Positions 1 through 20,900 of a stretch of DNA of 64,000 bases are shown here, piece by piece. The notes below the pieces were generated by a model, which ran no database searches, was not told the origin of the DNA, and worked only from the letters and a program-made list of their open reading frames with translations. The position numbers and the translations under genes were made by a program. Every line of letters starts with the position of its first letter. The first letter of the stretch is position 1. Origin of the DNA: Nemertoderma westbladi (lineage: Eukaryota; Animalia; Xenacoelomorpha); the NCBI GenBank assembly GCA_032718475.1, contig JAUCBJ010001051.1:1-64000 (forward strand), read 5' to 3'.

Positions 1-262
1 GGTCCAAGTGTCACAGAGCCGGCTCAAGAGGGTGTCATAAGTGACACCGCAGCTCTTTTATTCATTAATACTTATTTATTTGTACCTAATTTTAATTAAT
101 TAATTGTACTTTATTTTACTTTATTTATTCATTAGTACTTTATTTTAAATTAATTAATTGTATTACTTTTACTTTATACATTGATTTCTATTTTTAGATT
201 AATTAGTTTTTATAATACCAATGAGACACTATGACATAATGTCTATTTTTAACTTTATAATG
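1..262 (+). repeat. Left terminal inverted repeat (partial; truncated by window edge)
   Basis: ggtccaagtgtcacagagccggctcaagagggtgtcataagtgacaccgcagc is the exact reverse complement of 15481-15533. The AT-rich continuation matches 15060-15240. Confidence 0.9.
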
Positions 263-744
263 GCTATGGTATACGGCTCCCTACTGGCAACTATCAACTG
301 CGTTCATCGGCGGGGGCCCCTCCTCTGTCCTCATTATTCATTAACTAGATACAACAGGCAGTGAATCTACACGTATACCCCCAAGGCAAATATAAATGAG
401 CAGTCCCGTCTGTTAGCAGCCCCCCCTCGATGTCTCACTAATAATCCCAATGCGGCCTTGACTATACCAAATCCGTATATCGCCCAAGGCTAATGCTCTA
501 GCGGCCCTCCTTTGTTCTCACTATGGCATCACTTGGGTTCTTTCCTATATCCAGGCAGCCGCTATCATAACAATGAAGCGCCTCTAAACATGCATTCCTC
601 TCTACTAATTAATCCCTTTCCTTTGCACCAGGCCTGCTTCTGTTATACAGTCAACTCAACATAATTAGTCAATATGCCTACAGGAGTTTTCTAATATAGA
701 TTCATCAACACGAGAAGTTGCCCTGGTTACCGCTTATGCCTGAA

Positions 745-840
745 CAGCCAATCAGCGGGCTTCATTTCTACTGCTGCGTTCTGATTGGCTCATTTAAGAG
801 ACAAGGGCCCCCCTTAATAACCGAATTGCTATTTAATACG
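745..840 (+). promoter_or_regulatory. Putative Pol II promoter for the pPolB transcript
   Basis: Inverted CCAAT pair (agccaatcag ~747, ctgattggct ~781) and TATTTAA (~830). Downstream there is a GTAAGT donor (~1180) and pyrimidine-AG acceptors at ~1840 and ~1892, just before the ATG. Confidence 0.45.
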
Positions 841-1899
841 TCCCCACCAATATATTAGGTTCATCATTTCAATTGCAAGTTACGATTAACATCATTTACC
901 ATTATTTTGTTTTCGAATTTAATATTATTTATTTAAGAATATTTATTTGTTATCGTCAGTCAACTATCCAGTTGTATAGTTGTATTATTGTCATTTCGCC
1001 GCGTTATCGCTCATCGTCGTCAACAAACTTTCCGCGTATCCGTCGCGTAATATTTTTCCGATACCACTCCGTTCTATCGCTGTATCGGTAAATAAATTCT
1101 CTCGTCGTCCACGTCAACCAACTTCCTTGTCGCCACCGAACTTCCAAACTTCATCTTTCCGTGAATATTTACTAATACCGTAAGTAAAATCTGCCTTCCA
1201 CCATCTGACGGTACTATCGATGCCGCTAGCAAACAATTTACATTTATTATCTACCGGTACAATAGTATTGCAGTAGGCTCACTATTAATTACTGTCAGAC
1301 TGCGGTGGTACCGATAGCCTAAACCATGATCGAAGCATTCGATCAATAGGCCTAAATGTGTCTATCTGCTTGTCTACCCAACTACCGGTACCGCATCATT
1401 CGAGTTAGCCTAGTGCCACTATAGTAGCAATATAGACCCTACTGAACAACACTGAATACTGCAGTTTTCAATATATATCCTACTGACTAATTGAGATCTC
1501 ACACAGCGATTAGCTAGGCCTATCGTTGATTTGTATTGGTTAACGCTACCGGTACGTCTGACTTATAGCAGACTATATCACTAGCACTACTGCATTGACT
1601 GACTGTTGACTGCTGTTTATAGACCCTCTTTCCACGAATAATAACTGCCATGGCTATTGTGTCTTGGCTATCGCCACTATCTGGCAGCTGGTACACTAAC
1701 ACTACCACACTAGACACTGCCGACTGTCTGCTTTATGTTTCACTGACTGATTGCTACAATACAGCAATAGGCCTAACTGTACAAACACAGTATTGTTGCC
1801 TAGTAACCGATTAATATCCACTGTTTTACTTTATTTTTAGCAAGTATACAGTATTTTTTATTTTTTTATAAATAATCAACGTATTTTTCTAGATTCAAG

Positions 1900-4800
1900 A
1901 TGCCAAGATCAACAAATAAAGTTAGCTGTCCCATCTGCGACAAAGAGATGCGGAGTGATAATCTAAAATCCCACATTAAAATTCATTTCGCGCAATATAG
2001 ATGCGACTGTTGTTCGACTTGGTCCTCGGAAAAGAAGACACTGGTTGGCCATCTGCTATCGTGTCCTCAGGGGGGAACAGGATTTAGTTACGTAAACGAG
2101 CCAGCCGATTGCCGCTGCGGGGATTCGCTCACCCTATCATCCTTTTCTGAGCATGAATGCTATACTCGACTTTTTTCGCGGAAACGCAAAACTCCGACTA
2201 CCTCCCACTCATCCCCCATCAACTCTACTCCAGAACAAGTCGGCGGCGGCGGCTCCAATAATGAACCTTCAACTTCGCGAGATTCTATTTCCCCAAACAA
2301 TCCATTTCAACCACCCTCCAATGGAAGCGCACACAGACGACTGTTTACCTATAACAATGACCTCGCAGAAACAAGACTCGACGCTGAATTAACATTAAAC
2401 GAAAATTTTCCACACATTCAAGAACACGTTAGTAGCCATCTACAAAGTGCTTTGGGAACTTTTTTAAGAGTCTGGCTTACAATCAATATCGTAATGGAGC
2501 GTGAAACGAGCGAGGGATTTCAAATTGAATCTTTCTGTTTTAAATCTAGCGGTAACAATAATCAAATTCTAAATAATAGCGACTTTAATAACTGGTTTTC
2601 TAGCGCCGTCAATCGTATCGATCAACTGTTAAGCGTGTTTCTCTGTCTCGGCTCGGGTTGGCGCATAATAGCCATCGAGCGAATAACTATTGAGATTGCG
2701 CGGTCCCAACGCAACCCCTATTTAAAGGGTCAAGGCTTCAATAATTCTAAATTATTATTAAATAAAAAATGTACCGTAAGCGTAGACTGCCCGCTGGGGG
2801 AATGCTTTAAATATGCAGTATTGGTCGCCGCAAATTATAAGAAAATTGATAGAAAAAATAATAATATCAAAAGAATTTCAACGTATACTCCTTTCCTAAA
2901 CATGTTTGATTTTTCCAATTTAAGTTTCCCGGTGGACAGAGTAACTGGTATTCCCCAGTTTCTGAAAGCAAACCCTATATACTGTATAAACCTTCTTTAT
3001 TGGAGTAATACGGAAGAACTCTCCATTCTAAGTCAACCAGATAGCGCGCACTGTTCCGGTAAAACTGTACTAAACTTATTATTTATCGAAGCAACAAGCA
3101 AAAACCCCGCCCACTACGTAGCTATTACTAACATAGATAGATTAATAAATACTAAAGCTACTTCTACTGGCAACAAGACGCACTGCGAACGCTGTCTCAG
3201 AGCCTTTTACACTGACAAATCATTGGGAGAACATCGAGAGCGCTGCTATACGGGTAAACGCCAACTCGAGTATATGCCCGAAAATCTCTTGGTTAAATTT
3301 GATAGGTACGATAAGACTCTATCCCCTCCTTTCTGTATATACGCCGACATTGAAACTATTCTAGAACCTACAAACAATATTAAACTCCCACAGAAACATA
3401 TAGCTAGCGCGGCAGCCTTTTATACAGTACCAAATCAGAAATTAATTAACCCTCCTAAAACAGATGTTCAAATTTTCCGTGACGATGGCAGTAACCACGT
3501 AATGCGCGACTTTCTAACCGCTATGGAAAGTCATTGTAGGGAGTTATACGATTGGTCCATTTCTAGTACAAACACGCGCGCCCCCATGCAACTCACTACT
3601 AGCCAACAAACTGACTTTAATAACGCTACACAATGCTACGTCTGCAACTGTAATTTAACCCCCGATTCTCATAATTTAAACCTCAATGACAATCTCAGCA
3701 CCAAAGTCCGCGATCATGATCATTATAGCGGGGAGTATCGAGGGGCTTCTTGCGTTAGCTGCAACAGGAAACTTTCCCTAAAACGGAATAATTTTTATAT
3801 TATATTTCATAACTTGAGGAAATTCGATATGCATTTACTACTAAAAGAAGGAATGACCGATAGTTCTAGAACACACTGGAAAATGACTGTAATACCAAAA
3901 AACACCGAAACTTATATTCACCTTAAAGTTAGCTTTCCAATCGATCCGAGTACACCAACAGCCAACGCTAAAGAAAGTATCTCCATTAATTTTCTAGATT
4001 CCTATCAGTTTATGACTGCCAGCCTAGATAATCTTAGTAGTTATCTCACTAAAAATAATAGTAACCTAGCAACAGCCATACCCCATACACTAGCTCAAAT
4101 GACCCAACTCTATCCCAACATTAGCGATAACACAATAAAAAACAAGGGCGTATTCCCATATTCCTACATTCAAAATATTTCAAACCTACACGAAACTACA
4201 CTCCCCCCAATAGAAAGCTTCTATAATGATCTCAAATTGGAACAATGTAGCGCAGACAACTATCAGCGCGCGCTTACTACTTGGGATGAATTAAACTGCG
4301 CAACAATCTTCGACTATATGATTGGCTATTTGGTTCTAGACGTTACCCTATTGGCTGATACTTTCGAGCAGTTCCGATCCCTCTGTCTTACTAATTATGG
4401 ACTCGAGCCCCTAATGTACTTCACTGCCCCGGGATTAACTTACGACGCGGCGCTGAAATTCACGCAATCAGAAATTCAATTACTATCAGACGCTTCCATC
4501 TACTCGGACTTTGAAACAAATATTAGGGGTGGTCTAGTTTTCTTGAATACACATTCTGTAGACGCAAATATTCCCGATAAACCCGACTACGACTCCAGTC
4601 TCCCCGAGAAATATCTAATTCCCATCGATGCGAATAACCTTTACGGCTGCGCCCTGAGCCAGAAACTTCCCTACGCTAATATTAAACTCGTAACTACCCC
4701 CATAGACCTAGCTACAGTAGACGCGAGCGGGGACACTGGTTATTATTGCATAGTTGATCTACATTACCCGAAAGAAATTCATGATTTGACCGCCGATCTG

Positions 4801-5955
4801 CCTCTAGGAGCGGAGAAGATGTCAGTCCCTAAATCCTTTCTTAGCGAATACATGGAAGATCTTTGGGAGCATTACAATCTCACCGATACGGCTACCTGTA
4901 GACCATACAACGATACCTGTACTAAGCTACTACTACATCAGTTTAATAAGGTTGAATACGGTATCCATATTAAGCTACTTCAACTCTATTTGAAGCTCGG
5001 TCTTAAACTTACACAAGTACATAGGGTCTACTCTTTCTCACAAAAATATATTTTCAAGGACTATATTAGTTTTAATACGAATAAAAGACAGTCGGCAAAT
5101 AACCCATTCGAGGTCCTATTTTATAAGTTGATGAACAATGCCTTGTATGGGAAATGCCTCCAAAAGGTTAGAGACCGCGTTTCTTTCAGGTTATGCAATA
5201 GCGACGAACAATGCGATTTGCTCTTAGCCAAGCCCAATCACGAATCGTTTGTTGTCTTTACCCCCAACTTGAGTGGGCATACTTTCACTAAAGAGGCTGT
5301 TTGCCTAAATCAGGGCGTGTTCATCGGTTGCACTATACTAGATCTATCTAAGCTACAGATGTACGACCTATTTTACAACAAACTGAAGCCTCTAGAACAA
5401 AAACTGGGTTGCCAGATTCGCTGTCTAGCCGGTGACACGGATTCTCTAATGCTAAGCGTAACTAATGCACCACAGCTAACCTTTCTACGGGCAATGTTTG
5501 AGGATGGTTTCCTAGATACTTCCAACTACAGTACAACACATCCACTCTATACCATTAAACATAAAGCGGCTCTCGGCTTCGTAAAAGATGAGAGCTGCGG
5601 TTTGCAGTATAAACAGTGGGTTTTCCTTAAACCAAAGGTCTACAGTTTTCAATCCTATGATGCCCCAATCAAGAAAACCGCCAAAGGTGTATCTAGATCG
5701 GTTGTCGCTAAGCAACTAACACACGAGGATTATGCAGACTGTTTTGAAAACGAGGCAATGCTCTTCCGCTATAACTCTACCTTCACTTCTAGAAAGCATC
5801 AAATTTTTACTGGTCATGTCTATAAGAAGGCACTAACGCTCTGGGATACGAAATCATATTGGAGTAGTAAATATAGCAGCAAACCATACGGGCACTATAG
5901 CACTAAGCTTGTTAGACCGGCGAAACGAGTAGTAATCCCCCCTACTAGGATTTAA
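1900..5955 (+). CDS. Protein-primed family-B DNA polymerase (Polinton/adintovirus type) with N-terminal C2H2 finger and internal HNH/endonuclease-VII-like domain
   Basis: ExoI YADIET, ExoII FHNLRKFD, ExoIII YLVLDV; Pol motifs DANNLYG, KLMNNALYGK, GDTDSL, KPKVY, KTAKGV; CYVC...VRDHDHYSGEYRGASCVSCN; N-terminal CPICDKEMRSDNLKSHIKIH. The 1351-aa ORF is uninterrupted. Confidence 0.95.
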   Translation: MPRSTNKVSCPICDKEMRSDNLKSHIKIHFAQYRCDCCSTWSSEKKTLVGHLLSCPQGGTGFSYVNEPADCRCGDSLTLSSFSEHECYTRLFSRKRKTPTTSHSSPINSTPEQVGGGGSNNEPSTSRDSISPNNPFQPPSNGSAHRRLFTYNNDLAETRLDAELTLNENFPHIQEHVSSHLQSALGTFLRVWLTINIVMERETSEGFQIESFCFKSSGNNNQILNNSDFNNWFSSAVNRIDQLLSVFLCLGSGWRIIAIERITIEIARSQRNPYLKGQGFNNSKLLLNKKCTVSVDCPLGECFKYAVLVAANYKKIDRKNNNIKRISTYTPFLNMFDFSNLSFPVDRVTGIPQFLKANPIYCINLLYWSNTEELSILSQPDSAHCSGKTVLNLLFIEATSKNPAHYVAITNIDRLINTKATSTGNKTHCERCLRAFYTDKSLGEHRERCYTGKRQLEYMPENLLVKFDRYDKTLSPPFCIYADIETILEPTNNIKLPQKHIASAAAFYTVPNQKLINPPKTDVQIFRDDGSNHVMRDFLTAMESHCRELYDWSISSTNTRAPMQLTTSQQTDFNNATQCYVCNCNLTPDSHNLNLNDNLSTKVRDHDHYSGEYRGASCVSCNRKLSLKRNNFYIIFHNLRKFDMHLLLKEGMTDSSRTHWKMTVIPKNTETYIHLKVSFPIDPSTPTANAKESISINFLDSYQFMTASLDNLSSYLTKNNSNLATAIPHTLAQMTQLYPNISDNTIKNKGVFPYSYIQNISNLHETTLPPIESFYNDLKLEQCSADNYQRALTTWDELNCATIFDYMIGYLVLDVTLLADTFEQFRSLCLTNYGLEPLMYFTAPGLTYDAALKFTQSEIQLLSDASIYSDFETNIRGGLVFLNTHSVDANIPDKPDYDSSLPEKYLIPIDANNLYGCALSQKLPYANIKLVTTPIDLATVDASGDTGYYCIVDLHYPKEIHDLTADLPLGAEKMSVPKSFLSEYMEDLWEHYNLTDTATCRPYNDTCTKLLLHQFNKVEYGIHIKLLQLYLKLGLKLTQVHRVYSFSQKYIFKDYISFNTNKRQSANNPFEVLFYKLMNNALYGKCLQKVRDRVSFRLCNSDEQCDLLLAKPNHESFVVFTPNLSGHTFTKEAVCLNQGVFIGCTILDLSKLQMYDLFYNKLKPLEQKLGCQIRCLAGDTDSLMLSVTNAPQLTFLRAMFEDGFLDTSNYSTTHPLYTIKHKAALGFVKDESCGLQYKQWVFLKPKVYSFQSYDAPIKKTAKGVSRSVVAKQLTHEDYADCFENEAMLFRYNSTFTSRKHQIFTGHVYKKALTLWDTKSYWSSKYSSKPYGHYSTKLVRPAKRVVIPPTRI

Positions 5956-5969
5956 TTTTATTTTTCTAG

Positions 5970-6489
5970 AATAAGAAATTGAACAACAAAATAGAAATAA
6001 CCAATAAACAGTTTACCGGAAAAAACATTGCCAAATTTGAACTAGAGAAAATTTCACAGCAAATTACAGGTCAAAGTTGCTTAAAACCAAACATGTTTAT
6101 CTACAAAGGTGACGATTCAACTTTAATGCTATTTCCCAGCGGCGCAGTAACAATTGTAGGCCTGTGCAATAATTTAGCTAGTGAATTGCTTTATTTAAAA
6201 CAAACTATTGGTATGCAATTACAAAATTTGAAACTTAATACCGAAACACGAACTATTATTTTTCCAAGTGTTAATTTTAAATTATTAATGAAAAAATGTG
6301 GACATCATATAATTAATAATAAAGCAATATTTATTAGCTATACCCCCGAATTATTTTGCGCGATTAGAATATATATAGGACGTGCATATATATTTCAGTG
6401 TATTTCATAGTAATAAAATCGTTTCCATGTGTCCTTCCGGTGAATTCCCCGGATCATTATCTATTTTACAAACTTTATTATTAAATTAG
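5970..6489 (+). CDS. Divergent TATA-binding-protein-like gene (two TBP half-repeats; one frameshift near 6390; no ATG, starts at a splice acceptor)
   Basis: MFIYKGDDSTLMLFPSGAVTIVG resembles the TBP strand pattern (LIF.SGK.V.TG). FISYTPELFCAIRI resembles FSSYEPELFPGLIY. A +1 shift in an AT run continues FSVFHSNKIVSMC...LLN*. Total length is ~173 aa, the size of a TBP core. Confidence 0.7.
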
Positions 6490-6554
6490 TTTATTTACTA
6501 TGGTATACATGAAAGTTTACTATATTATTTATTTTGTGTTGGTTTTATTTTTCC

Positions 6555-8140
6555 GTGAGTAGGGTTTGTATCCGTGACCATCCGTGTTACCTACTTTTTA
6601 TAATTGCATTAGTAGGACTCGAACCCTGGTTTAACTTATTTTGTGTTGGTTTTATAATGGTCGCGAGTAGGGATTGAACCCGTGACCTCCTGTTTATTTT
6701 CCATAAAACGGGATACGACTAGGGATCGAACCTGTGACCAGATGTTTTCCTATTTTGTGTTTAGTTTAGATATTCTAGTTATTCTATGTTTAACTTATTT
6801 TATGTTGGTTTTATATTGGTCGCGAGTAGGGATTGAACCCGTGACCATCTGTTTATCCTATTTTGTGTTTACTTTTTATATTTTTCCATAAAACGGGATA
6901 CGAGAAGGGATTGAGCCCGTGACCTGCTGTTTTTCCTATTTTGTGTTTAGTTTAGGTACTCTAGTTATTCTATGTATACTTTTTATATTTTTCATAAAAC
7001 GGACACGAGTACGGGTCGAACCTATGACCATCTGTTTATCCTATTTTGTGTTTAGTTTAGTTACTCTATGTTAAAGTGAATTTGCACCTTATATTTATGT
7101 TAAATTATAAATTTATGTTACAATTATTATTTATATTATAAAAAACAGTTAAAGTGAATTTCATATCATATTTATGTTAAAATATAAATTTATGCTACAA
7201 TTATTATTTATATTATAAAAACAGAAATATTCGAGTTATATTGCATTATATATTTTACATTGAAGTGGAATACTTTAGATGTTGGGGGACTCTGGTTTGC
7301 GAGGGATATTTGAATGGTGAGTATAACTATCCTTGAGAGCTAGTGCAACGCTATCTCACTATGGATGGGCTTTACCACTGTACTCGCATCCGCTCTCTCA
7401 TTGGCTGCTCGATGCCTCCGATTAAGGGTCTAAGACCTTCAAGCTGATCATTTGCTTAGTTTTCTAATTAGAAGGTCGTGAGTTTGCACCCTAGAAGAGC
7501 ATTATTCTTTTTCCTAGCTCTTGGTTAACTCTAGCATACACTCTAGCTTTGACTCTCCCGGAGATAGTGATAGTATGCAACCTTGGGAGTTAATGTGAGA
7601 ATATATTTCAGTGTATTTCATAGTAATAAAATAGTTTCCATGTGTCCTGCTGGTGAATTCCCTGGATCATTATCTATTTTACAAACTTTATTATTAAATT
7701 AGTTTATTTACTATGGTATTCATGAAAGTTTACTATATTATTTATTTTGTGTTGGTTTTTATTTTTCCGTGAGTAGGGTTTGAATCCGTGTCCATCCGTG
7801 TTACCTACTTTTTATAATTGCATTAGTAGGACTCGAACCCTGGTTTAACTTATTTTGTGTTGGTTTTATAATGGTTGCGAGTAGGGATTGAACCCGTGAC
7901 CTCCTGTTTATTTTCCATAAAACGGGATACGACTAGGGATCGAACCTGTGACCAGATGTTTTCCTATTTTGTGTTTAGTTTAGGTATTCTAGTTATTCTA
8001 TGTTTAACTTATTTTATGTTGGTTTTATATTGGTCGCGAGTAGGGATTGAACCCGTGACCATCTGTTTTTCCTATTTTGTGTTTACTTTTTATAATTCCC
8101 ATAAAACGGGATACGAGTAGGGATTGAGCCTGTGAGCATA
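6555..8140 (-). repeat. Array of ~13 tRNA T-arm/B-box-like motifs in two clusters (6555-7030, 7770-8140)
   Basis: Minus-strand units such as GGTCACGGGTTCAATCCCTACTCGCGACCA, GGTCACAGGTTCGATCCCTAGTC and CAGGGTTCGAGTCCTACT, separated by AT-rich spacers. Confidence 0.75.
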
Positions 8141-8361
8141 TGTTTTTCCTATTTTACCTCTTCTTCTCCATCTTTCTCACTCAAATTTTCCTCATTTTCT
8201 AGGGGTAACTGTTTTTGTATCCCTTTCAAAATATTCACAACTTTATGAAATTTATTTTCCATTGGCTGTTTTATATTTAATATATCACGCTCATCTCTCT
8301 TTTTCTTTTCATCTTCACTAAAATATCTTCGGATTTTTTAAATTTTTTGGTAACGGAGCCA

Positions 8362-8454
8362 TTAGTTTTCCTTTCTATGTGTTTCCATATGACGAGATAA
8401 ATTGTCTTGTCTCATTTCTTTATTACAAACCAAACAACTTTCATGGCTATGCAT
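8362..8454 (-). CDS. 30-aa micro-ORF or remnant encoding a single C2H2 zinc finger
   Basis: Manual translation gives MHSHESCLVCNKEMRQDNLSRHMETHRKEN*, clearly similar to the pPolB N-terminal SCPICDKEMRSDNLKSHIKIH. Confidence 0.5.
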   Translation of the reverse strand: MHSHESCLVCNKEMRQDNLSRHMETHRKEN

Positions 8455-9128
8455 TATATAGCAATGTCATTTGATAATATTGAATTTTCACATTATATTT
8501 ATATTAAATTATAAATTTATGCTACAATTATTATTTATATTATAAAAACAGAAATATTCGAGTTATATTGCATTATATATTTTATATTGAAGTGGAATAC
8601 TTTAGATGTTGGGGGACTCTGGTTTGCGAGGGATATTTGAATGGTGAGTATAACTATCCTTGAGAGCTAGTGCAACGCTATCTCACTATGGATGGGCTTT
8701 ACCACTGTACTCGCATCCGCTCTCTCATTGGCTGCTCGATGCCTCCGATTAAGGGTCTAAGACCTTCAAGCTGATCATTTGCTTAGTTTTCTAATTAGAA
8801 GGTCGTGAGTTTGCACCCTAGAAGAGCATTATTCTTTTTCCTAGCTCTTGGTTAACTCTAGCATACACTCTAGCTTTGACTCTCCCGGCTATAGTGATAG
8901 TATGCAACCTTGGGAGTTAACGTGAGTAAAGACCAAGAGATTAGACTTCAGGCTCCCTCTATTGCTTCATTCTTCTTAACTTTATAAAATAACTCAACCC
9001 GTATTTAAAGTTTTAAAAATTATGACTTAGTCGACTAATTTTCCAAAGTATATATTATAAAAACATATAATTTCTTGAATAAATAGACCTAATAGTAATA
9101 AATAATGTGGGGGTAAATACATTTATAA

Positions 9129-9933
9129 TTAAGGTAACTGTAGCTCGAGACTGGGGCAATCAAGTGTTCTAACTAAGGTTCTATAGCAACTCCGATAGGC
9201 AATGATCGATAATGGTGGGGTCCCTGAGAGTAGATAGAGTGTATTATTCTCCAAATAGTTCCCAAGAAGTAAGAGGCCGCGTTGCACCTTGCGGTGGTAG
9301 GCGTCGAGTTTGTCGATATCCTTTCGGCGTAGGGATCCAATAGTCAGAGTTAATCTGTAGATTATGACAGGGACGGCGAGTGTGTTCCACATCTTAAAGA
9401 TGGTCTCTAGGTTGAGCCACCTTGCTGTCCATCCTTTGGTATGGAAAACTTGCGACATCATGGCTATTGTCTGGATAACATCGTGGAGGTTGCTAGCGGG
9501 GTTAGAATTTCCCAGTTTGTGTCCGAGGAATTTCAGATGGTTCGACATTTGGATTAGTGATCCGTTGACTGTAATGAAACATTCCTTGTGGGTCATATAG
9601 TTACGGTTTAGGATCGTCCATTTTGTTTTCTTCATGTCGATTTGGAGGGATACCAGAGCGGCTTCCTGTATGAGTATTTCGCACATCTTCTCGACGGATT
9701 TAAGCGAGGTTCCCAGGAGTAGGTAATCATCAGCATAGGCCACTGTACCAAGCCAGGATGTGTCAATTCGGCATCCGAGGTTACTATGTTCTATTCTGCT
9801 TAAGATGTTGGAGGTGTAAAGATTGTAGAGGATAGGTGAGATGAGTGATCCCTGTTTCAATCCCCGCGAGACTTTTATTGGAGTTGGGTCGACTAGATCG
9901 CCGAATTTGAGGAAGATTTTGCTCGATCCAAAC
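9129..9933 (-). pseudogene. 5'-truncated non-LTR reverse transcriptase (RT domains 4-7 plus thumb) inside the Polinton
   Basis: FGSSKIFLKFGDLVDPTPIKVSRGLKQGSLISPILYNLY...AYADD...KFLG. The frame is open for ~267 codons and the N-terminal RT domains are absent. Confidence 0.85.
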
Positions 9934-10218
9934 TAAGCTAAGATAAGGCAAATACTGTAAGGAGTAACTGTAAGGGACAACTGCGCTCCCAATCTCGCTC
10001 GCCGGCCGGTCCTCATGCAAATTTAGCCTATGAGAAAATAAATAATTTATTTTATAATTAAATAATAATTTATTATTTAAGTAATTGCTTTATAGCCATC
10101 TTGGTAATTCTTATAACTTTAAAATTATTGTAATTACTCAAATTAATTTCTATACTCAATTTGCTTATTGCTTTAACCTATTTTATTATATCATATTATA
10201 AAGGAATGTTAGTATTAA

Positions 10219-10638
10219 TTAAAACTTACACCATGGTTCCTCCCTGAAATCCTCTGTTTCCTCCCAGTTTTCCTGGGGAAAAGGGTAAAGGAAACGTTGT
10301 TCCTCAGCCGCTGCTATCTCTTTCTGAACATATTCCTGGTACAAATACTGATCGTACCAGTTGGAGGAGGTCCGAAGCCCTTCCACTCGCGCTTCCTCCA
10401 ATGCTCGAATCTCGAGCTCTCGATTAACCAAATCTTCCTCCCACGCCATCTCCTCTTCCTGATCCCTCATATAACGGACATAGGGAGTGACCGCTTCCGA
10501 CCTGCTCTCCATGGTCTGTGTACCGACGCTTCTGGTTGCGGTTGTGTTGGTAGCGTTGGATATGGTGGTGACGGGTGTAGCTGTGATGGAGACCGGTGTT
10601 ACGGAGGCGGCTAGCTGGGTGCTGGTGGTGGAATCCAT
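10219..10638 (-). CDS. Small orphan protein: Thr-rich N-terminus, TQT motif, acidic helical C-terminus
   Basis: ATG at MDSTTS; TATATAAA on the minus strand at ~10779-10786; GC-rich coding island; GTAAGT donor at ~10230 and TTTTCTCATAG acceptor at ~10029. Confidence 0.6.
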   Translation of the reverse strand: MDSTTSTQLAASVTPVSITATPVTTISNATNTTATRSVGTQTMESRSEAVTPYVRYMRDQEEEMAWEEDLVNRELEIRALEEARVEGLRTSSNWYDQYLYQEYVQKEIAAAEEQRFLYPFPQENWEETEDFREEPWCKF

Positions 10639-11051
10639 GATGATGAATAGCCAAATTGACAAATTGTAAACGCAAAAGTTTAAAATGAAATGTAAAGTTT
10701 AAAATTAGCGTCTTGTGAAATAAATCATGTAAAATTATTCGAGCTCAAAACTGATGAGGAATGAAGGTCCCATCTCGGTTTATATAGCATCAGCGCAGAG
10801 GGAGCAACGCAACAGTTTCAACGAGCGGCGGCTTTAATTAAAGGGCTCCCCAGTGATAAGTCGTTAGGAGCCAGTAGTAATTAAATATCGGTAATAACTA
10901 TGGGATATAGCATATGAATGTTAGCCTTATTTGGGCCCTCAAGCTTATTAGCAATAGAGATATCTCGCTTGCCGGCCGGCCCTCATGCAAATTTAGCGGC
11001 GCCAAGGCTAACGGGGCACCTCGAAGACAGTCTGGCTATAGTAGAGTAGAA

Positions 11052-11882
11052 TGGATATACGAGTCCATAGCTAAAATACATCTGCCATGGAGCCTTCGCG
11101 TAGCACTATGCTCACCAAATATATTTATAATTCTCTGGATATACGAGTCCATAGCTAAAATACATCTGCCATGGAGCCTTCGCGTAGCGGTAGCACTATG
11201 CTCACCAAATATATTTATAATTCTCTATCCGCGAAATTTTCAGGAATTTTAAATTTTGGCCGTCGCTTCGCGGAAAAATAAAAAGTAAACACAAAATAGG
11301 ATATACAGATTGTCATAGATTTGATTCCCTATCTCGACCAGGGTCATTATGACCCTCCCCCGATATTTATACAATATTTTATAGGCCGGTAGTATTGGGG
11401 TTATTATGTGACTCATGAAAATAAATCTTAAATACAATACAAATGCTCCATCTTGGAGAAGTGGATGCAATGTATTTACAAAACGAGTGTGGATCAGGAT
11501 AGTTTTCGTTAAGGTTTCACCTTGGTGAAGTGGAAGCATTGTATTTACATTTCGAGTACCATTTTTATTGAAACTATGGGGCATTTTATATTAGCCGATT
11601 TTTCAAAATTTGTAAAGTTTTGAGGGTTTTTATGAAAAATATAGGGATTTAGGGATTACCATTCAAATTGACTACGAAGAAGGCATAGGGATCATTAATG
11701 GTGTGCTGAGACTCAGAAATTTTCAGGAATTTTAAATTTTGGCCGTCGCTTCGCGGAAAATATAAAAAGTAAACACAAAATAGGATATACAGATTGTCAT
11801 AGATTCGATTCCCTATCTCGACCAGGGTCATTATGACCCTCCCCCCCGATATTTATACAACATTTTATAGCCCGGTAGTATT
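11052..11882 (+). repeat. Local duplications inside the element (~85-bp tandem 11052-11226; 11235-11400 = 11717-11882)
   Basis: Direct sequence identity. The ORF track shows a repeated peptide (WIYESIAKIHLPWSLRVA x2). Confidence 0.85.
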
Positions 11883-12491
11883 ATGATTAAAGCTACTAAA
11901 CTAAAACATAACAAAGTGCAATTATCCTATCTGTTCCAACTCAGTGTCACTAGTTTAGATAATATACTATAATAATAGTGATAGCAGATGCTTTTAATTT
12001 CGCGATGAAATAATGTCAGCAAACGAAATATAGTGAATACATCATAGATAGAATTTTAAATTTTGCAGTTGCATGGAGTGATAACCCTTAGGTGAAAGCT
12101 AAATTTGCTCTACTTTAATCAAATGGGGCATTAAAGCTATGAGTGTATTTTCCTCTACATCCTCCCTCGATCTTACACAAACCTGGGTGAAAGGCAGTTG
12201 GAGGGCTATCATTCCCATCATATGCGGTCCTCCCTTTAATGTTTCATTGATCTATTCATAGTCGCCTTTAAGAATTTCTCGGGAAAATAAGGATGAGGGG
12301 CTATCACTTTCAACCCATGCGGCCCTCCCTTTCATGATTTCATTGAACTATCCATAGTATGAACAATCAAACCAAAGCCTTTGAATATCCTCGCGGCTTA
12401 TCAGCGGCGCCATGGCTAACGGCTTAATATTAACAGTGAAGCATCTAAAAGACAGAGTGTCTATGATAGGGCAGAATAGCATACTTACAGC

Positions 12492-12689
12492 CTAGAGGTG
12501 GTCGCCCTGAAAACTTTGCTCGCCATCAATACATACAAAGCATCGCTTGATGGATAGAGTAATAGGGTGGATATTTTCATTTTGGTGAATATAATTTATA
12601 GCATTAATCACGAAAATCGCTAAATAATATATTTTAATTAAAATCAACTCTGATAAACAACTTGCATATCGAGTTTGTAAAGAATTCAT
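12492..12689 (-). pseudogene. Degenerate, deleted paralogous fragment of the 13037-14711 orphan gene
   Basis: ggatagagtaatagggtggatattttcattttggtgaatataattt resembles 13241-13287; tctgataaacaacttgcatatcg resembles ~13670-13695. Confidence 0.55.
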
Positions 12690-13036
12690 AAGGATTGGCT
12701 GTTTATTTAGGGGTTAACATGCAAATTGATTATGAGCGAGCAATAGGGTCATTAATGGTATGCTGAGACTCACTTACTTCATGGCTCGCTCTCATAGAAT
12801 AGATTAACTAGTAGAGAAAAATGAAAAATAACCGGTTAAACATCTTATATTTTTTAAACAATATGGGGAAACAAGAATAAATAATTTACCGACAACATCA
12901 ATATTAAATAATATAACAACAACGGATAAATAATTTACCAACAACATTAATAATAAATAATATAAGAACATCAACAATAACAAAAGATATAATCAGAACA
13001 GTTTTTAATAAATAGAGACTGTTTATATTAATAGGG

Positions 13037-14711
13037 TTACTGGCCTCCGAGAATAACTGGTTTAACCCTTTTAGGGTCCGATACTATTAATGGTTGCGAT
13101 AATTTTCTCTTTAATAGATTGTTGAGATAGCCTTTTCTTGGGGGGTGAAATAGATTAAGGTGTGTTTGCTGCGGGAGAAAGATGCCTTCTCTGAGAGAAC
13201 GTTTTAGTAATTCGAAAAGGCGCGCGATGGTAAAGTCGTTGGATAGGGTGATAGTGTTGGTATTTTTCGTATTGGTGAATATAATTTCTGCTGGTTTGTT
13301 CTCGATATGAATGTAAGGACTGAGATAGTAGTGAGAGTTGGGTGGGTTGGTTATATTTATCGCGAGAAAATCGCTGCCCCTAATATTGAGACCGTTGGTG
13401 AACTGAAAAGTGGTATTCTCTTCGTCTTTCATTAAAATGGGCCAGATACCAACATATTTTTCGGATTTGAACTTATAGATAAAGGCTGCGATACTGCTAT
13501 TTATGAGATAGCGCTGGTGATTGGGGATTGTAATCTGCTTCGGTTTGAAAGCAAATTGTATAGCCATAGCCTTGAATCTGATTAGAGCCTCGCGCGCTTG
13601 AATCGTGTTAGCTATAGTAAAGGATTCGTTAAATTTTCTCTCGGTTATCTGTAAATCAATTTCTGAATCACTGATACAACTTTGTAACGATATTCGCTCG
13701 GAAATGTTGTCTTTGTATACGTTAAGTTCATCGTAGCAGACACATTCACTATCCTCGACGGTTGAATCGAACCATTTCAATTCGCCGACCTCGCTTGGTG
13801 TAAGAAGAATCATGCCCCTAGAAGAAACAATAGCCTTTCCATCGTCAACCTCGTAGCCATTGGTGATCGCTAAATTGCGCTCGTTCCGAATATTTGTAAC
13901 AAACCCAAAAGTGCAATAGTCAAAAGCAACCCAATTACCCGGTTTTAGGACAAGGTGAGTAGTAGGATTAATAAAAGGGCGACAGATGTTTACATATTGT
14001 TGAAATAAATTGGCGCAGGCGATGGAAAATGTGATCCATGAACTGTTTACCGTGTCTTCCAGCTTTATTAACTCGAGTGGTTTCACTGGGTTAATACTTC
14101 CATAGGTGCCAACTCTATAATTGAATCCAAAGTAATAGGAGACTTTATTGGCGAAAAAGCATGTGAGCTCATTCAATTTCTCGCCGAAAGCGAGAACATC
14201 CTTGTCGAAAAGTTTAAAGAAACGAGTCTCCTCTTCCTCGGTCGGAGTCGACGAGTTCCAGATGAGAAGAAGAATCGAGTTTGCGATACTATGAAAATCA
14301 AATAAGCGATCATCGGAGAAGAAGGAGGTTACGAGAGTGGTTAAACCCAGTAGACGATTTGCCACATCTTGGTTGATGTTTTCTCGAATAAAACGTCTCG
14401 GGCGAAGTAGTTAGATTGAACGTGATTTTGTTGTCCCTTTTTAAAAGTTTGAAACCGTGGTTGGAGGAATGAAATTTATTATCGTCGAGGGTTTGATATT
14501 GTCCATCGTGAAGTTCGTAGCAGGCGCGGAAAATAAAGTGCGCGTAGTTTGCCGGAATCGGGATGGGTTGGTTTAAGGTTGTATTTATCGTTAACGGGAA
14601 GAGTTTGTTCGCCGGATCGAAATATAGACCAAACGAGTTGTCTTGTAGCATAAACTGATTTTCGTTGCAAACCAGATCGTTGCTTGAATAGCTGATTTCT
14701 GAATGTGCCAT
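13037..14711 (-). CDS. Orphan ~557-aa protein (two ORFs joined by a single frameshift at ~14391) with C-terminal basic NLS-like segment
   Basis: ORF 14711-14310 (...SPETF) continues in the +1 frame as IRENINQDVANRLLG... into the 442-aa ORF, at a T4 run. It ends LLKRKLSQPLIVSDPKRVKP. Confidence 0.65.
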
Positions 14712-14824
14712 CGTGATTGTGTACCGGTAACTCGTTTAGGAAATAAAAATAAATAAATACTTTTACGAAAATAATTAGAACTTTTCAGGAAAACAAAGAG
14801 ACAATGATTGGGAATGTGGTGAAC

Positions 14825-14930
14825 GGGGGCTATTATAGAGGGGGCTAGAATGGGTTAGCCAATCAGGGAACAGGAGGGAGAAAAGACTGTATAATTAAAC
14901 CAATCAGAGAGCAGCTTTGATGACGTCACA
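14825..14930 (-). promoter_or_regulatory. Putative promoter of the right-arm gene
   Basis: Two CCAAT boxes (agccaatcag ~14857, aaccaatcag ~14898), TGACGTCA (CRE) at ~14920 and TATAATA on the minus strand at ~14831-14837. Confidence 0.45.
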
Positions 14931-15059
14931 TCAGGCGAGATAATGATTGCCCAATGTTATTCAATGGTAGACAGAGTGGCGCCATTGAATAACGAAGACA
15001 AAGGGGCCGCGAGAGGAAAGATTATAAAGTTAACGATAAGGGATCTATAAACCATAGAG

Positions 15060-15821
15060 CTAAAAATAGACATTATGTCATAGTGATCTCATTGGTAATA
15101 TAAAAACTAATTAATCTAAAAATAGAAATCAATGTATAAAGTAAAAGTAATACAATTAATTAATTTAAAATAAAGTACAAATGAATAAATAAAGTCAAAT
15201 AGAATACAAATAATTAATTAAAATTAGGTACAAATAAATAGTTAAATTGAAAATAACAAAGTTAGAGAAGATGTTAATTTTCAGGTAATACGCCCTCTAG
15301 CGGCAGACTATGGAACTGCAGGCGGTTGGATATAGATAAGAGTAATTAGTTACCAGTAAGGGAGCTGTATACCCATAAAGTACAAATGAATAATTAATTT
15401 AGAATTAAATACGAATAAAATAAAATGCAAATAATTAATTAAAATTAAATATAAATAAATAGATATTAATGAATAAAAGAGCTGCGGTGTCACTTATGAC
15501 ACCCTCTTGAGCCGGCTCTGTGACACTTGGACCTAACTGATGACCCATTGTGTGTCAGGGCGCTAATCAGTCTGATTAATTAGGATAATCAATTAAACCC
15601 TAATTAGGAGTCATATGACACCTGTTAGGGTTTAATTGTACTAATTAATTGATGACACCTGTCAATTAGGGTCTAATTAGCCTAATTGGGAGGTGTCACC
15701 CAGACAGTCTGGCGCCAATGACACCCAATGACACCCATAGGGTGATAATTGGGTGTCATATGACACCCAATGGGTGTCAGTTAGGTCCAAGTGTCACAGA
15801 GCCGGCCAAGACCCTACTACT
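15060..15821 (-). repeat. Right terminal inverted repeat with terminal multi-hairpin
   Basis: Inverted match to 1-250, interrupted by ~220 bp (~15240-15460) absent from the left copy. A perfect 30-bp stem (15511-15540/15777-15806) encloses several palindromes. Confidence 0.85.
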
Positions 15822-16886
15822 ATAAGCGTTTTAAAAAAGTGTCTTTTGTGAAATCGCACCCTCTGTATCATTGCCATTCTTCACTTTAGTCGTAATTTTT
15901 CACATCAATAGAAAGCTTGCGTTGCAAGGATTCCAAATATGTAGCAATGGCTGAATTTCATTGAGTAACAGCTGAGAAATAGGCGTTCAAAGATTGCAAG
16001 AATTATTGTTCTCTGAAGGCCATTTATTCTATTTAATAAATACACAATATCTAGAACGTGTTATTTATTTTATGAGTTGGTTGGCAACAGCGGTATGAAT
16101 ATTCAATATCTATATTATTATTATTATTATTTCAATCCGGTATAAGGCCCCGGTGGCTTTAATTAGTTAAAGGGTCGGACGACATACTAATGATTTCACT
16201 TGCACATAAAGATAAGAATCATTGAAAACTGAATCACAAGTGGCGTATGGTATAAGAAGGTAAGACAAGACAAACAATGTTCAAATATCTAGAATCTCCT
16301 GAATAAGTGGCCTTCGGATATTAAACTTTACTCCATTTTTCCATAGATAATTTTTAAATGCAGTATTTTATAACTCTCTCGGGGTGTTAGGGTGATGCAG
16401 GTGCTTTTAAGTTTACTAAGACAAGACTTTATGGCGTATTTATGAACTGCAAGAGATGTAAGACTCGGGATGTTGGATTCCCATCATGAAGATGTTATAG
16501 GTTGAGTATAATTTAACATCACCCTGGCCAGTAATGTTCACTCCAAGTAGATAATAGAACAGATACATTACTTTTTTATTGCCGCAATTGAATGTATTAT
16601 ATATAGTGCGACATTGGTATTGCGTAGCTAATCATACATAAACAAATTGTTCCAGAATATTGCGTATTTATTAAATAGAATAAATGGCTTGCAGCGAACA
16701 ATAATTCTTGCAATCTTTGAACGCCTATATCTCAGCTGTTTCTCAACGAAATTCAGACATTGTTACATATTTGGAATCCTTTCAACGCAAGCTTTCTATT
16801 GATGTGAAAAAATTACGACTAAAGTGAAGAATGGCAATGATACAGAGGGTGCGATTTCGCAAAAGACACTTTTTTAAAACGCTTAT
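15822..16886. mobile_element. Non-autonomous foldback/MITE-like element with ~235-bp TIRs
   Basis: ataagcgttttaaaaaagtgtcttttgtgaaatcgcaccctctgtatcattgcc... is inverted at 16650-16886. Confidence 0.8.
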
Positions 16887-17964
16887 AAATAAAATTTAAG
16901 GCAAAATCGAAAATTCCGGCTTCATGGTAACAACCACGGTGAGTTGAACTAGTTGTGTTTCAAATTTCAAGCAATATGATAAAGATTTGTAAAAAAAATT
17001 TGGGGGGGGGGGGGGGGCGGGGGTCCGTCATCAGAAAATGACACTATATTACGGGTCATGGTGTATATAGATTTTATATACTTTGTGATTATTACTTTAT
17101 TTAGGTTGGTGTATCTACAGTACCGTGTACCTAGGCCCCTCACTATGTACCGTGTTACATTATTTTGTATAATTCCTGATTTCAGTATTTACACAGTCTG
17201 CACAACATTCAATTATGTAGTATTGTGGCAATGCGAGAATTGCCACTTTAAGCAATATTTAATTTCCGAGTGCTATATCGCTAGTCCATAATCTGATAAT
17301 CATGGTATACAGCTTGCAGTAATGTACAGCAGTACAGAGATATAGATAGCATTACGATAAAAACCTAATCATCTAAGTCGTGCAGTCTGACAGCGGTACC
17401 CGAAAGTGAAAGTAAATTAACGCAGAGCCACCTAGCAGGTATTCCGAGTATGCTTTCTAGCGTCCGCCATAGTATTTTCTATTATTATTGCCATTGATAT
17501 TTGTGTAATATCGAAACGTTTGGATAATTAATAAAATTCTTAATAAATGATATTGACGTTATTTTGTTGAAATTTGGCTTAATCAGAATATCTTCGGAAG
17601 AAATTCTTCTAAAAATGCTTAACGAGACGTTTTGGTTGGACCTTTGCTTGCTTGCTTAGTTCTAAAATGGCTGCAATCTATTTTACGCGAGAAATGTTCA
17701 GACAAACAGGATGCAGGGTCGTCTGAACTTATATTCCCGATAAATTTATATTAATGGCAAAAATTCACTTTTGCCATTCGGAGCCATTTTGGGGCCAATT
17801 TAAAAAATGTTTGGTTTAGCTATTCTTAAACAGCCCAGACGATTTTTAGTAGGACAACAAATATTTTCACCCAATTTTAGGGTCCAGAGACTTCAAAAAA
17901 TGATCTTCCATTTGGGGTGCTACCCCCCCCCCCCCCCCTAACTTGTTATCACCTAACTTTGCAG

Positions 17965-20900
17965 ATAACAGCATGAATTCCACACTGAGTGATTCAATGG
18001 ACGACAGTTCACGGGGATCTCTAGAACTTATGCCATCTAACGAGCCTAAATCACATCGTAAATCATCCGCCAAACAACCCGTCCCACCGCCAGAGGGCTA
18101 CGTCTGCGAGTGGCTAAACTGTAACAAGTCAGTTAATATTTAACATAAATCATTTAAAAGTTCTAAAGTGGAGGAACCTTCAGACTACACATACACTACG
18201 GACAGGGCGTACATTTATTTTTATGAAATCTGTTAGCTGCTAATTTTTATTGTGCGATAAAAGACATGTTAATTTTACTTGAAATTGTAAATATCCATTA
18301 TACATACATATTGTGTAATGCAGTACCGCTTGGGGGCGCCTCTCCGCCAAGTAAAACCTTTCAAGTTCGCGAACTGACTCAATTCATCGAGAGACTGCGT
18401 GGATGATTTCTGAGTCAAAATAAATTGGGTAAAATAAATAGTAACGATGGGTAATAATCCTTTGGTCCTTTACATCTAACACGTTCGTGGGGCCTTCGCG
18501 CAGCACGAGCCTGACTACCTAGTACACTACGTGTTTGATGCGTCGTCCATCAGTTTGGTTGAATTTCATCAATGATTGACTGACTTATTTCGGTTTTTAT
18601 CAAAAGTCTGATACTAAATACCGGTACCGACTGACAGATTGTCGGAATTTGACCAAACTTGAAGAGTATTTGTAAACTTTTAACGGACTACATACGTACC
18701 AAGTTTGGTTTAATTTCATCAAGGAATTACCGAGTTAATGGCGATCAAAAATTAGACGACGACAGACGACTCGTTTATGGTACCCATATGCTAAGGCTTC
18801 ACTCACTTCGTGGTTCGCCCCACCACGGACGGACATATTGTTAGAGTTGTATTTAACGAAAAGTAGCTCTGTTTTTATTGTATCCATCAATTTTATTTCA
18901 ACTATATCAATAGCACAGCTAGTAAAATATAGAGATACATTATTATAGACATAGTGGAATATTCTAATACAATCTAGTAAATATCCAAAACAAAAGAATT
19001 CTGATTATATATAATATGTAACTAATTCAATCGGTTTGGTTTGTCCGTTAATACGTCCGTTTATTCGTTCATGCGTGTTCGTCTGTCCGTCATTAGGTTT
19101 ATCGGATGGTTTGTCAGTCTTTGGGCTCTCCTGTCTGTCTGGCAGTCTCTGGTCAGGTCGGTCTGTTTGTCCTGTACAGATTTCTTTCCTGGACAGTCTA
19201 TTGGCTCTAATGATTGACAAGTACCTCTTTATGTACCAAAATGAGTTAATTATTATTTGCAATAGAGTTTATTATAGATCGCCAATCCCCCCCCCCCCCC
19301 CCCCAACGTCCCCCATCCCTCCCATCCCGTTTATCCCTGGCCTCGGTCCACTACAGATCTCCCATCCCCCCAACGTCCCCCATCCCGTTTATCCCTGGCC
19401 TCGGTCCACTACAGATCTCCCATCCCCCCAAGGTCCCCCATCCCTCCAACGTCTCCCATCCCCCCAAGTCCCCCATCCCGTTTATCCCTGGCCTCGGTCC
19501 ACTACAGATCTCCCATCCCCCCAAGGTCTCCCATCCCCCCAACGTCTCCCATCTCACCATCCCGTTTATCCCTGGCCTCGGTCCACTACAGATCTCCCAT
19601 CCCCCCAAGGTCCCCCATCCCTCCCATCCCCCCAAGGTCCCCCATCCCTCCAACGTCTCCCATCCCACCATCCCGTTTATCCCTGGCCTCGGTCCACTAC
19701 AGATCTCCCATCCCCCCAAGGTCCCCCATCCCTCCAACGTCTCCCATCCCACCATCCCGTTTATCCCTGGCCTCGGTCCACTACAGATCTCCCACCCCCC
19801 TTATTCCTGGCCTCGGTCCACTACAGATCTCCCATCCCCCCAAGGTCCCCCATCCCCCCAACGTCTCCCATCCCACCATCCCGTTTATCCCTGGCCTCGG
19901 TCCACGCCTTCGCTATTGTTCTCTTCATCTCATCGTCCCCCTCGTCGTACATGTTCTTCATTAAGTTCATTATCCCGGCAGACGGATCATCCTTATCCGA
20001 AGGTTTTACTTCCGGTTTCGGTTTGGTCGGTTTCTTCTGTAAACCGTCCCATCTAAATAAAACAGAAATAATATATATGTAGTTTTCAACAAGACAAAGA
20101 TTAATAATTAGTCCCACTATAAGTGTTAGAAGATTGGACTGTTGGGACACTGTCCCAGTCTTACAACAATATATTGTTGCTAGAATCCGCACCCCACGTT
20201 GATACAGTTTTGTTGCGCACGAAGTTACAGACATTGGCTGTTTGGAGAAAGAATATCTGTAAGCTAAGCTAAACGACCCTGTTAGAGCTGCGCAGAGTAG
20301 TTGATGAATAAAAGGTAGTCAGTCAGTCGACAATCATTGGATTCGATTAGTAGACATACTGACATACGTTGTCTGTCAGACTACCGTACAAGCTACAACA
20401 GAATAACACACGGTTGACTCAGATTTTAGTGACAAAAAAAAACTTAAATTAGGTACCAAAATCAGGCATCTGTTACGGTAGGCCTACCTTATTAAACGAG
20501 TTACCGGTAGGAAAAATCAGGCAGTGCTATAAAACTATTAAAAACAATGGACTAACTTTCCGGAAGAGGATTTAGTTAGTGTGACAACGATCATATCCGT
20601 TTTAATCCGGTAACTCGATTTCTCCGGGAGGATTTTTCCACTGAGGTCGGCCACATACAGACTGTATAGCCGGTTGCCAAGACTGCCGACTAGCAGGTCT
20701 ACCGCGGTGGCTGAGTAGGCGCACTGTATGGCGGCCGGGTCAGCTTTGTGGACGTTATCCAAGGTGACGTAGAGTTTCACGGATTTATCGTTCTGGTCCC
20801 ACCCGTATTGGGTTATCTTTGTGGTTTCCGAGGGCGAGTAATCCAGACGTCTGGGTTTCGCGTCGCCGTTGGTTGTCGACGCGGTTTCTCTTCTCTCGAC

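What the first reader, a model, noticed from the sequence alone, without database searches (positions are those of the whole stretch)
5970..6489. TBP-like gene directly downstream of the Polinton polymerase
Seen: 14 nt after the pPolB stop, a TTTTTCTAG acceptor opens a frame with two TBP-like half-repeats (IEITNKQFTG...MFIYKGDDSTLMLFPSGAVTIVG; LKLNTETRTI...SYTPELFCAIRI...FSVFHSNKIVSM). The second half is completed by a 1-nt frameshift in an AT run. Known: TBP homologs occur in large DNA viruses (NCLDV TBP-like factors, herpesvirus TATT-binding proteins) but are not a standard Polinton gene. Inference: the element encodes its own promoter-recognition factor or a dominant-negative TBP decoy. It has no ATG, so it would be expressed by splicing from an upstream exon.
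Basis: partly seen in the sequence, partly recalled or inferred. Interest (0 to 1): 0.85.

Follow-up and report, generated by a model that had tools for sequence, protein, structure and literature searches.

The report
Polinton TBP gene without start codon
A virus-like jumping element in a likely animal genome carries a much-altered TATA-binding-protein gene that has a splice signal but no start codon right behind its polymerase gene, so it is likely made by splicing and likely steers the host's transcription machinery to the element's own promoters, although this copy is broken.

Summary
Confirmed: 5970-6489 is a divergent TBP gene 14 nt behind an intact pPolB in a TIR-bounded Polinton-type element. 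A profile of 81 related mini-TBPs scores it 48 bits; the best of 1000 shuffles scores 10. An intact relative lies in a Polinton with ATPase and integrase (L001).

The frameshift is not programmed: every contig covering it in three studies differs there, so it belongs to this copy or this assembly.

There is no ATG before codon 42; the relatives' start Met column falls on an Ile codon. The same acceptor word precedes only pPolB and TBP in 64 kb. Splicing from the left-end promoter is likely but unshown, as no RNA covered the site. No integrase, ATPase or capsid gene was found in this copy, so the TBP may be a relic. The decoy idea has no support.

In print I found TBP in such elements only as a figure-legend label (Starrett 2021). 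This scan has already noted Polinton TBPs on other DNA (8 notes). New here: the start-less, acceptor-led placement directly behind pPolB (0 of 63 relatives).

The parts
1..258 (.). Inner part of the left terminal inverted repeat; the element's left end likely lies just before the window start
   Evidence: 91-95% inverted match to 15054-15533
748..799 (+). Candidate left-end promoter: two CCAAT boxes (one per strand) and a TTTAAGA word
   Evidence: Read from the sequence; function inferred, no control run
1180..1185 (+). Candidate splice donor GTAAGT ending a leader that holds no ATG
   Evidence: Best intron-side score of 215 GT sites, rank 4 on the full score; no ATG in 800-1179
1884..1892 (+). 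TTTTTCTAG acceptor word 7 nt before the pPolB ATG
   Evidence: One of two matches in the window
1900..5955 (+). Intact protein-primed DNA polymerase B, 1351 aa, with an EndoVII-like insert
   Evidence: PF03175 E 4.7e-18, PF02945 E 3.6e-4; best relatives about 41% identical
1921..1926 (+). Candidate phase-0 donor (AAA|GTTAGC) after the first 7 codons of pPolB
   Evidence: Rank 11 of 215 GT sites, tied third of 56 phase-0 sites in the pPolB frame; untested
5956..5969 (+). 14-nt spacer that is one T-rich acceptor; its TAG is an in-frame stop for the TBP frame
   Evidence: Tied best T tract of 162 YAG sites in 700-6500; second of two TTTTTCTAG matches
5970..6489 (+). TBP-like gene, about 172 codons, no ATG before codon 42, broken by a frameshift in the AT run near 6380-6395
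   Evidence: break differs in other samples
6388..8926 (.). Internal duplications: 6388-6942 repeated at 7601-8155 (96%) and 7155-7599 at 8481-8926 (98%); the first starts at the TBP break
9129..9932 (-). LINE-type reverse transcriptase fragment lying inside the element
   Evidence: PF00078 E 4.7e-14
10219..10638 (-). Orphan ORF, 139 aa, with TATATAAA upstream
   Evidence: No significant Pfam or NCBIfam match; upstream sequence
13037..14711 (-). Orphan coding region in two overlapping frames, likely one broken gene
   Evidence: no family; Atlas best 0.80, a lead only
15054..15821 (.). Right terminal inverted repeat ending in CTACTACT (an AGT-type Polinton terminus, recalled)

Best explanation
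This is a divergent TATA-binding-protein gene of a Polinton-type element, broken in this copy, that is likely made by alternative splicing from the element's left-end promoter and likely serves as the element's own promoter-binding factor for host RNA polymerase II. Shown: TBP homology over both repeats, the acceptor word, the absent ATG, the copy-specific break. Inferred: one transcript starts near 800-830, a leader ending at 1179 joins the acceptor at 1892 to give pPolB mRNA; a second form skips the polymerase body and joins the acceptor at 5969. The best candidate source of Met is the 28-nt pPolB start exon (1893-1920), whose donor is in phase with the TBP frame, much as adenovirus pTP and polymerase share a small start exon (recalled). 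The protein would sit on an AT-rich promoter word and recruit host factors.
For: Family profile 48 bits over residues 10-151, across the break. 22% identity, E 7e-11, to the intact L001 TBP, itself Pfam TBP E 2e-15. Model with alignment pLDDT 78; 38 PDB matches at E <= 0.001, the listed rows to rank 42 all TBP. Three of four DNA-kinking Phe positions and the first dyad Asn kept (roles recalled). TTTTTCTAG occurs twice in 64 kb, before pPolB and before TBP. The host intron in the flank uses an AA|GTTAGT donor and a T-rich TAG acceptor (n=1). All 6 contigs covering the break in X1, X2, X4 differ from the window there by a small indel, at full depth. No listed variant creates an ATG or removes the acceptor AG (5 rows not shown).
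Against: No transcript or junction was seen. Two TTTTTCTAG matches are expected by count alone (mean 1.26; 36 of 100 shuffles reach 2); only their placement is telling. The 1920 donor ranks 11 of 215 on a crude score, and a stronger phase-0 donor lies at 5166. Phase 0 is a 1-in-3 chance and 7 stop-free codons a 56% chance. No integrase, ATPase or capsid gene is detectable in this copy (0 of 568 queries), so there are no late genes in cis to switch on. Many positions nearly invariant in the 66 relatives are changed. 0 of 63 related loci have a TBP right after pPolB. The fold model leans on an alignment of TBP-family proteins; without it pLDDT was 35.
Confidence: 0.4

Rival explanations
1. Relic: the amplified family is a non-autonomous derivative that keeps pPolB; its TBP lost the start codon in the founder and is no longer made.
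For: Ile codon in the relatives' Met column (53 of 66 rows start there); many conserved positions changed; no integrase, ATPase or capsid gene found.
Against: The frame is open over 138 codons in AT-rich DNA and the break is absent from other samples' contigs. TBP divergence (22% to L001) goes along with a long pPolB branch (39% to L001; end branch 1.19). A diverged copy aligns gap-free over 114 nt at about 80% (X1 record 5).
Confidence: 0.25
2. Non-AUG start: the non-coding leader (donor 1179) is spliced to 5970 and translation starts weakly at the Ile codon at 5991 or the Leu codon at 5979, keeping TBP levels low.
For: 1179|GTAAGT is the best intron-side donor; the Ile codon sits in the relatives' Met column with A at -3 and G at +4; no upstream ATG in 800-1179.
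Against: Such starts are usually weak (own knowledge); no initiation data.
Confidence: 0.17
3. Spliced-leader trans-splicing: pPolB-TBP is an operon-like pair and a host leader ending in AUG gives the Met, as in flatworms.
For: Exon starts in phase 0 directly after the AG, 14 nt behind the upstream stop. Flatworm leaders end in AUG and can supply the start (PMC9851317, passages); operons with short spacers are resolved by leaders (PMC12582326, passages).
Against: Host phylum not determined (one search gave nothing). No SL RNA match in the window, which says little. At the pPolB acceptor such an AUG would be out of frame with the ATG 7 nt later.
Confidence: 0.1
4. Dominant-negative decoy that blocks host TATA promoters or soaks up host initiation factors.
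For: One of the two acidic stirrup residues is replaced (T125; 65 of 66 relatives have Glu) and no Phe lies in residues 36-42.
Against: No test supports it; the relatives keep both acidic residues; a host-toxic product is an unlikely cargo for an integrated multi-copy element (inference).
Confidence: 0.06
5. Programmed ribosomal frameshift in the AT run completes the second repeat.
For: The two halves overlap in adjacent frames in the window.
Against: Every covering contig in three studies differs from the window at this place; relatives are single ORFs.
Confidence: 0.02

Closest known systems
TBP-labelled gene in MELD viruses with adintovirus-like PolB (Starrett et al. 2021, PMC8502044, Fig. 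5 legend; passages and section 10 read, figure not seen)
   Same: TBP-like gene in a midsize linear DNA element with a Polinton-type PolB.
   Different: Only a label in a legend, in a section on non-animal datasets; no analysis there. Which element bears it I could not see. Here the gene lacks an ATG and follows pPolB directly.
Polinton-type mini-TBP family around L001 (81 proteins)
   Same: About 167-172 aa, two repeats, no N-terminal tail; on pPolB contigs (L001 directly; six more pairs share a contig length with a pPolB record).
   Different: Relatives start with Met (65 of 66) and, in L001, sit before the ATPase gene in an element with an integrase; the window's protein is only 19-31% identical.
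Cellular TBP/TRF (Pfam PF00352)
   Same: Saddle fold, YxPELF-type second stirrup, three of four Phe positions.
   Different: 16-22% identity, below the Pfam cut-off, first Phe and one stirrup Glu changed.
Beta/gamma-herpesvirus viral TBP, KSHV ORF24 (PMC7498053, abstract read)
   Same: Works-like model: a viral TBP mimic that directs host Pol II to viral promoters.
   Different: ORF24 has a separate domain that binds the Pol II CTD and acts with five other viral proteins; this protein is a bare TBP core and no partner genes were found.
NCLDV TBP (megavirus chilensis, PMC11464507, passage read; BFVD hits; L104)
   Same: Viral TBP homologue; structural matches at E 8e-5 to 6e-4.
   Different: Megavirus encodes its own RNA polymerase subunits; this element has none.
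Animal Polintons/Mavericks (adintoviruses)
   Same: Long TIRs, AGT-type terminus (recalled), pPolB.
   Different: No integrase, ATPase, protease or capsid gene found in this copy.

Membership tests
TBP family (PF00352) | Two direct repeats of the TBP domain in one chain | tested here: met
   Profile match over residues 10-151 with X at the break; pairwise match to L001 TBP across the break
TBP family (PF00352) | Pfam score above the curated cut-off | tested here: not met
   19.7 bits against 22.9; the L001 relative passes with 56.7
TBP family (PF00352) | Saddle fold | tested here: met
   138-aa unbroken part, pLDDT 78, first repeat above 85, last 40 residues 50-60; Foldseek TM 0.45-0.59 to TBPs; depends on the alignment
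TBP family (PF00352) | Four DNA-kinking phenylalanines (recalled) | tested here: inconclusive
   F55, F129, F145 kept; no Phe in 36-42 where the first is expected, register there unsure
TBP family (PF00352) | Two acidic TFIIB-binding residues in the second stirrup (recalled) | tested here: inconclusive
   E127 kept, T125 replaces Glu
TBP family (PF00352) | Binds a TATA-like DNA word | not testable with these tools
   No assay
Autonomous Polinton/Maverick | Long terminal inverted repeats with AGT-type ends | tested here: met
   left end lies outside the window
Autonomous Polinton/Maverick | Protein-primed PolB | tested here: met
Autonomous Polinton/Maverick | Retroviral-type integrase | tested here: not met
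   0 of 568 locus ORFs, 35 of them integrase-like, hit 6501-15821; 133 hit the control region 1801-6500
Autonomous Polinton/Maverick | Packaging ATPase, protease, capsid proteins | tested here: inconclusive
   13 ATPase-like queries gave no hit; the orphan at 13037-14711 has no family match, so a very divergent virion gene is not excluded
Autonomous Polinton/Maverick | Target-site duplication | not testable with these tools
   Left end is outside the window and no genome is held
Herpesvirus vTBP/vPIC | Separate Pol II CTD-binding domain and partner activators | tested here: not met
   The protein is about 172 aa, the profile covering 10-151; no partner genes recognised in the element

The most novel reading that the evidence does not exclude
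A Polinton lineage has fused replication and transcription control into one spliced unit: polymerase and a private TBP share a promoter, leader and start exon, and the choice of acceptor switches between copying the genome and redirecting host Pol II, even in a stripped element without integrase or capsid.
Probability: 0.25. Interest if true: 0.75.

Novelty: new variant of a known kind. Interest (0 to 1): 0.48.

Why it matters
How Polintons, which have no RNA polymerase, control their genes is open. A private TBP would give them a herpesvirus-like way to steer host Pol II in a 15-20 kb genome, and a start exon shared with pPolB would be an adenovirus-like splicing scheme in a transposon-like virus. 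It also warns that ORF callers needing an ATG will miss such genes. The likely high-copy family makes the splice prediction directly testable with one RNA library of the host.

Tried and rejected
Direct searches with the 146-aa frame found no relatives: word search 0 of 32 candidates, 1.8 billion representatives 0 at E <= 0.001, PDB sequences 0, NCBIfam 0. Relatives came only through pPolB-linked loci. Single-sequence fold failed, pLDDT 35. No RNA holder listed; X5, a guessed RNA run, had pieces on pPolB only and one poor 37-nt match at the acceptor; neither is evidence on expression. The X4 joint 5786-5964 (22 letters on the short side, 8 ambiguous, DNA run) was set aside as a likely repeat artefact. 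Read coverage of the whole element was not obtained, so its population-level gene content is open. Scans of viral contigs with TBP queries gave no new Polinton locus: 0 loci and L104, which has no pPolB hit and looks like a giant-virus contig. Host phylum: exact look-up of three window proteins found none; Rfam 0 matches. pPolB-TBP read-through fusion rejected: different frames and an in-frame TAG at 5967-5969. The pPolB tree is the quick one, the careful search did not finish. No shared TAAGA box in the 90 nt before 11 L001 genes, so the late-promoter box of earlier scan notes was not reproduced there. No complex prediction was sent.

Full report
Observation. The pPolB frame (ATG 1900, stop 5955, 1351 aa) is intact. 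Fourteen bases follow, forming one T-rich tract that ends in TTTTTCTAG at 5969. An open frame starts at 5970 and runs 146 codons; the last strands of the second repeat lie in the +1 frame, which stops at 6489. The only ATG in the first 130 nt is codon 42.

Is it TBP? Direct evidence was weak: Pfam TBP E 0.019, or 8e-4 with X at the break, under the cut-off; no hit by word search, among 1.8 billion representatives, or in PDB sequences. The Atlas gave TBP clusters at 0.94, 10 of the 10 best in one family, with a low recognition value. I fetched 103 loci with related pPolB. Of their 3282 ORFs one matched, at E 2e-7, next best 0.47: an intact ATG-led TBP in L001, a contig with pPolB, KilA-N, phospholipase A2-like, ATPase and integrase genes. 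It aligns with the window's protein over residues 10-151, across the break, at 22% identity, E 7e-11. It leads to 81 proteins, nearly all with PF00352. Their profile scores the window's protein 48.0 bits; the best of 1000 shuffles scores 10.1. The profile of alignment A2 hits 35 distinct PDB sequences, TBP chains or TBP fusions. With that alignment the unbroken 138 aa fold at pLDDT 78 and match TBP structures (38 at E <= 0.001, TM 0.45-0.59) and viral TBP-like models. This model is not independent of the alignment, and without it the fold failed.

Residues. Against 66 relatives (of 81, those of 145 aa or more), F55, F129, F145, N12 and E127 are kept; residues 36-42 hold no Phe; T125 replaces the other stirrup Glu; several near-invariant positions are changed. 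The roles of these residues are recalled from cellular TBP.

The frameshift. I laid 4 of 9 listed runs on 5200-7200. In X1, X2 and X4 (three studies) all 6 contigs covering the break differ from the window by a small indel, at full depth (2125 of 2125, 2064 of 2064, 72 of 72); X5 does not cover it. The break is therefore not a family trait. Contigs drop rare variants, so a real mutation in this copy and an assembly error cannot be told apart; the break coincides with the start of a 556-nt duplication, which leans towards a real rearrangement. Main contigs have depth near 2000 beside diverged copies at 4-60 in X1 and X2, which suggests a high-copy family, though depth is no copy number.

The element. 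Inverted repeats join 1-258 to 15054-15533 and the right end reads CTACTACT at 15821. Inside are pPolB, TBP, duplicated repeats, a LINE fragment and two orphan coding regions on the minus strand. None of 568 locus ORFs, among them 35 integrase-like and 13 ATPase-like, hits 6501-15821, while 133 hit the control region. This copy is not an autonomous Polinton; whether the whole family lacks these genes was not established. In a quick tree the window's pPolB is a long branch within a supported 38-row set that also holds L001 and three pPolBs sharing a contig length with a TBP record. Six such length-matched pairs exist; this linkage is indirect. TBP was found in 1 of 103 loci (1 of 30 of 10 kb or more) and directly after pPolB in 0 of 63 with at least 600 nt downstream.

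Expression. TTTTTCTAG occurs twice in 64 kb, at 1884-1892 and 5961-5969. The count is what chance gives (mean 1.26), but both sit within 8 nt of a gene start. The 5969 site ties for the best T tract of 162 YAG sites. The best intron-side donor is 1179|GTAAGT; the leader before it has no ATG. A phase-0 donor follows the first seven pPolB codons (rank 11 of 215 on a rough score from memory) and resembles the one host donor seen in the flank. The relatives' start Met (53 of 66) aligns with residue 8, an Ile codon in good context. Four readings fit: a shared pPolB start exon (my best guess), a non-AUG start, a host leader ending in AUG, or a gene no longer made. No RNA evidence separates them.

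Function. By analogy with herpesvirus viral TBP (PMC7498053, abstract) the protein would bind an element promoter word and recruit host Pol II. Here no late genes are seen in cis; candidate targets are the left promoter (TTTAAGA at 793) and the two minus-strand genes. This is inference. The decoy idea has no support beyond one changed stirrup residue.

Literature. Five full-text searches (listings only, apart from the papers named) found TBP tied to Polinton-like elements only in Starrett et al.: a Fig. 5 legend label (PMC8502044, passages and section 10; preprint passages). The figure and supplements were not seen and may say more. The nematode Polinton preprint 10.1101/2023.08.22.554363 has no TBP mention in its main text. 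The library lacks most subscription papers. This scan has noted Polinton TBPs on other DNA in 8 notes, leader trans-splicing of Polinton genes in one and an integrase-less mini element in one; these are unchecked leads. No look-alike of this stretch was on record.

Verdict. Real, divergent TBP gene; copy-specific break; splicing likely but unshown. A new variant of a kind that is barely in print but already seen in this scan. Interest 0.48.

Noticed in passing
window 13037-14711 (-): Orphan coding region of about 590 codons in two frames behind CCAAT and TATA-like words; no Pfam, NCBIfam or PDB match; Atlas best 0.80 to Endotoxin_N and CTXL_M clusters, a weak lead only.
   Followed up: partly
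window 6529-7073, 7742-8155, 11272-11340, 11755-11824: Family of 80-105 nt repeats with a GGGATTGAACCC core in both orientations inside the element; contig depth over 6607-7142 is several times that of the genes. No Rfam match.
   Followed up: no
window 15507-15540 and 15770-15810: An inverted repeat within the right TIR that could form a long hairpin near the terminus (read).
   Followed up: no
window 15821-16887: A second inverted-repeat element (arms 15821-16068 and 16638-16887, 93%) abuts the Polinton's right end.
   Followed up: no
window 19860-21033 (-): Host calcyclin-binding-protein (Siah-interacting) gene with at least one intron; used as the only sample of host splice signals.
   Followed up: partly
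L001 11690-11783 and 12950-13037: The same TTTTCAGGTACGA.CAACATCTC word followed by a CT run lies before two neighbouring genes; may be a shared leader, splice or promoter signal.
   Followed up: no
window 6003 and 6480: AATAAA inside the TBP frame 48 nt after the pPolB stop, and ATTAAA just before the TBP stop: possible alternative poly(A) signals.
   Followed up: no
window 33299-37369, 37777-41361, 42971-51136 (-): Long intact ORFs: a Copia-type polyprotein, a 2721-aa polyprotein that reads like BEL/Pao (by eye), and two large ORFs without clear Pfam family just downstream of it.
   Followed up: no
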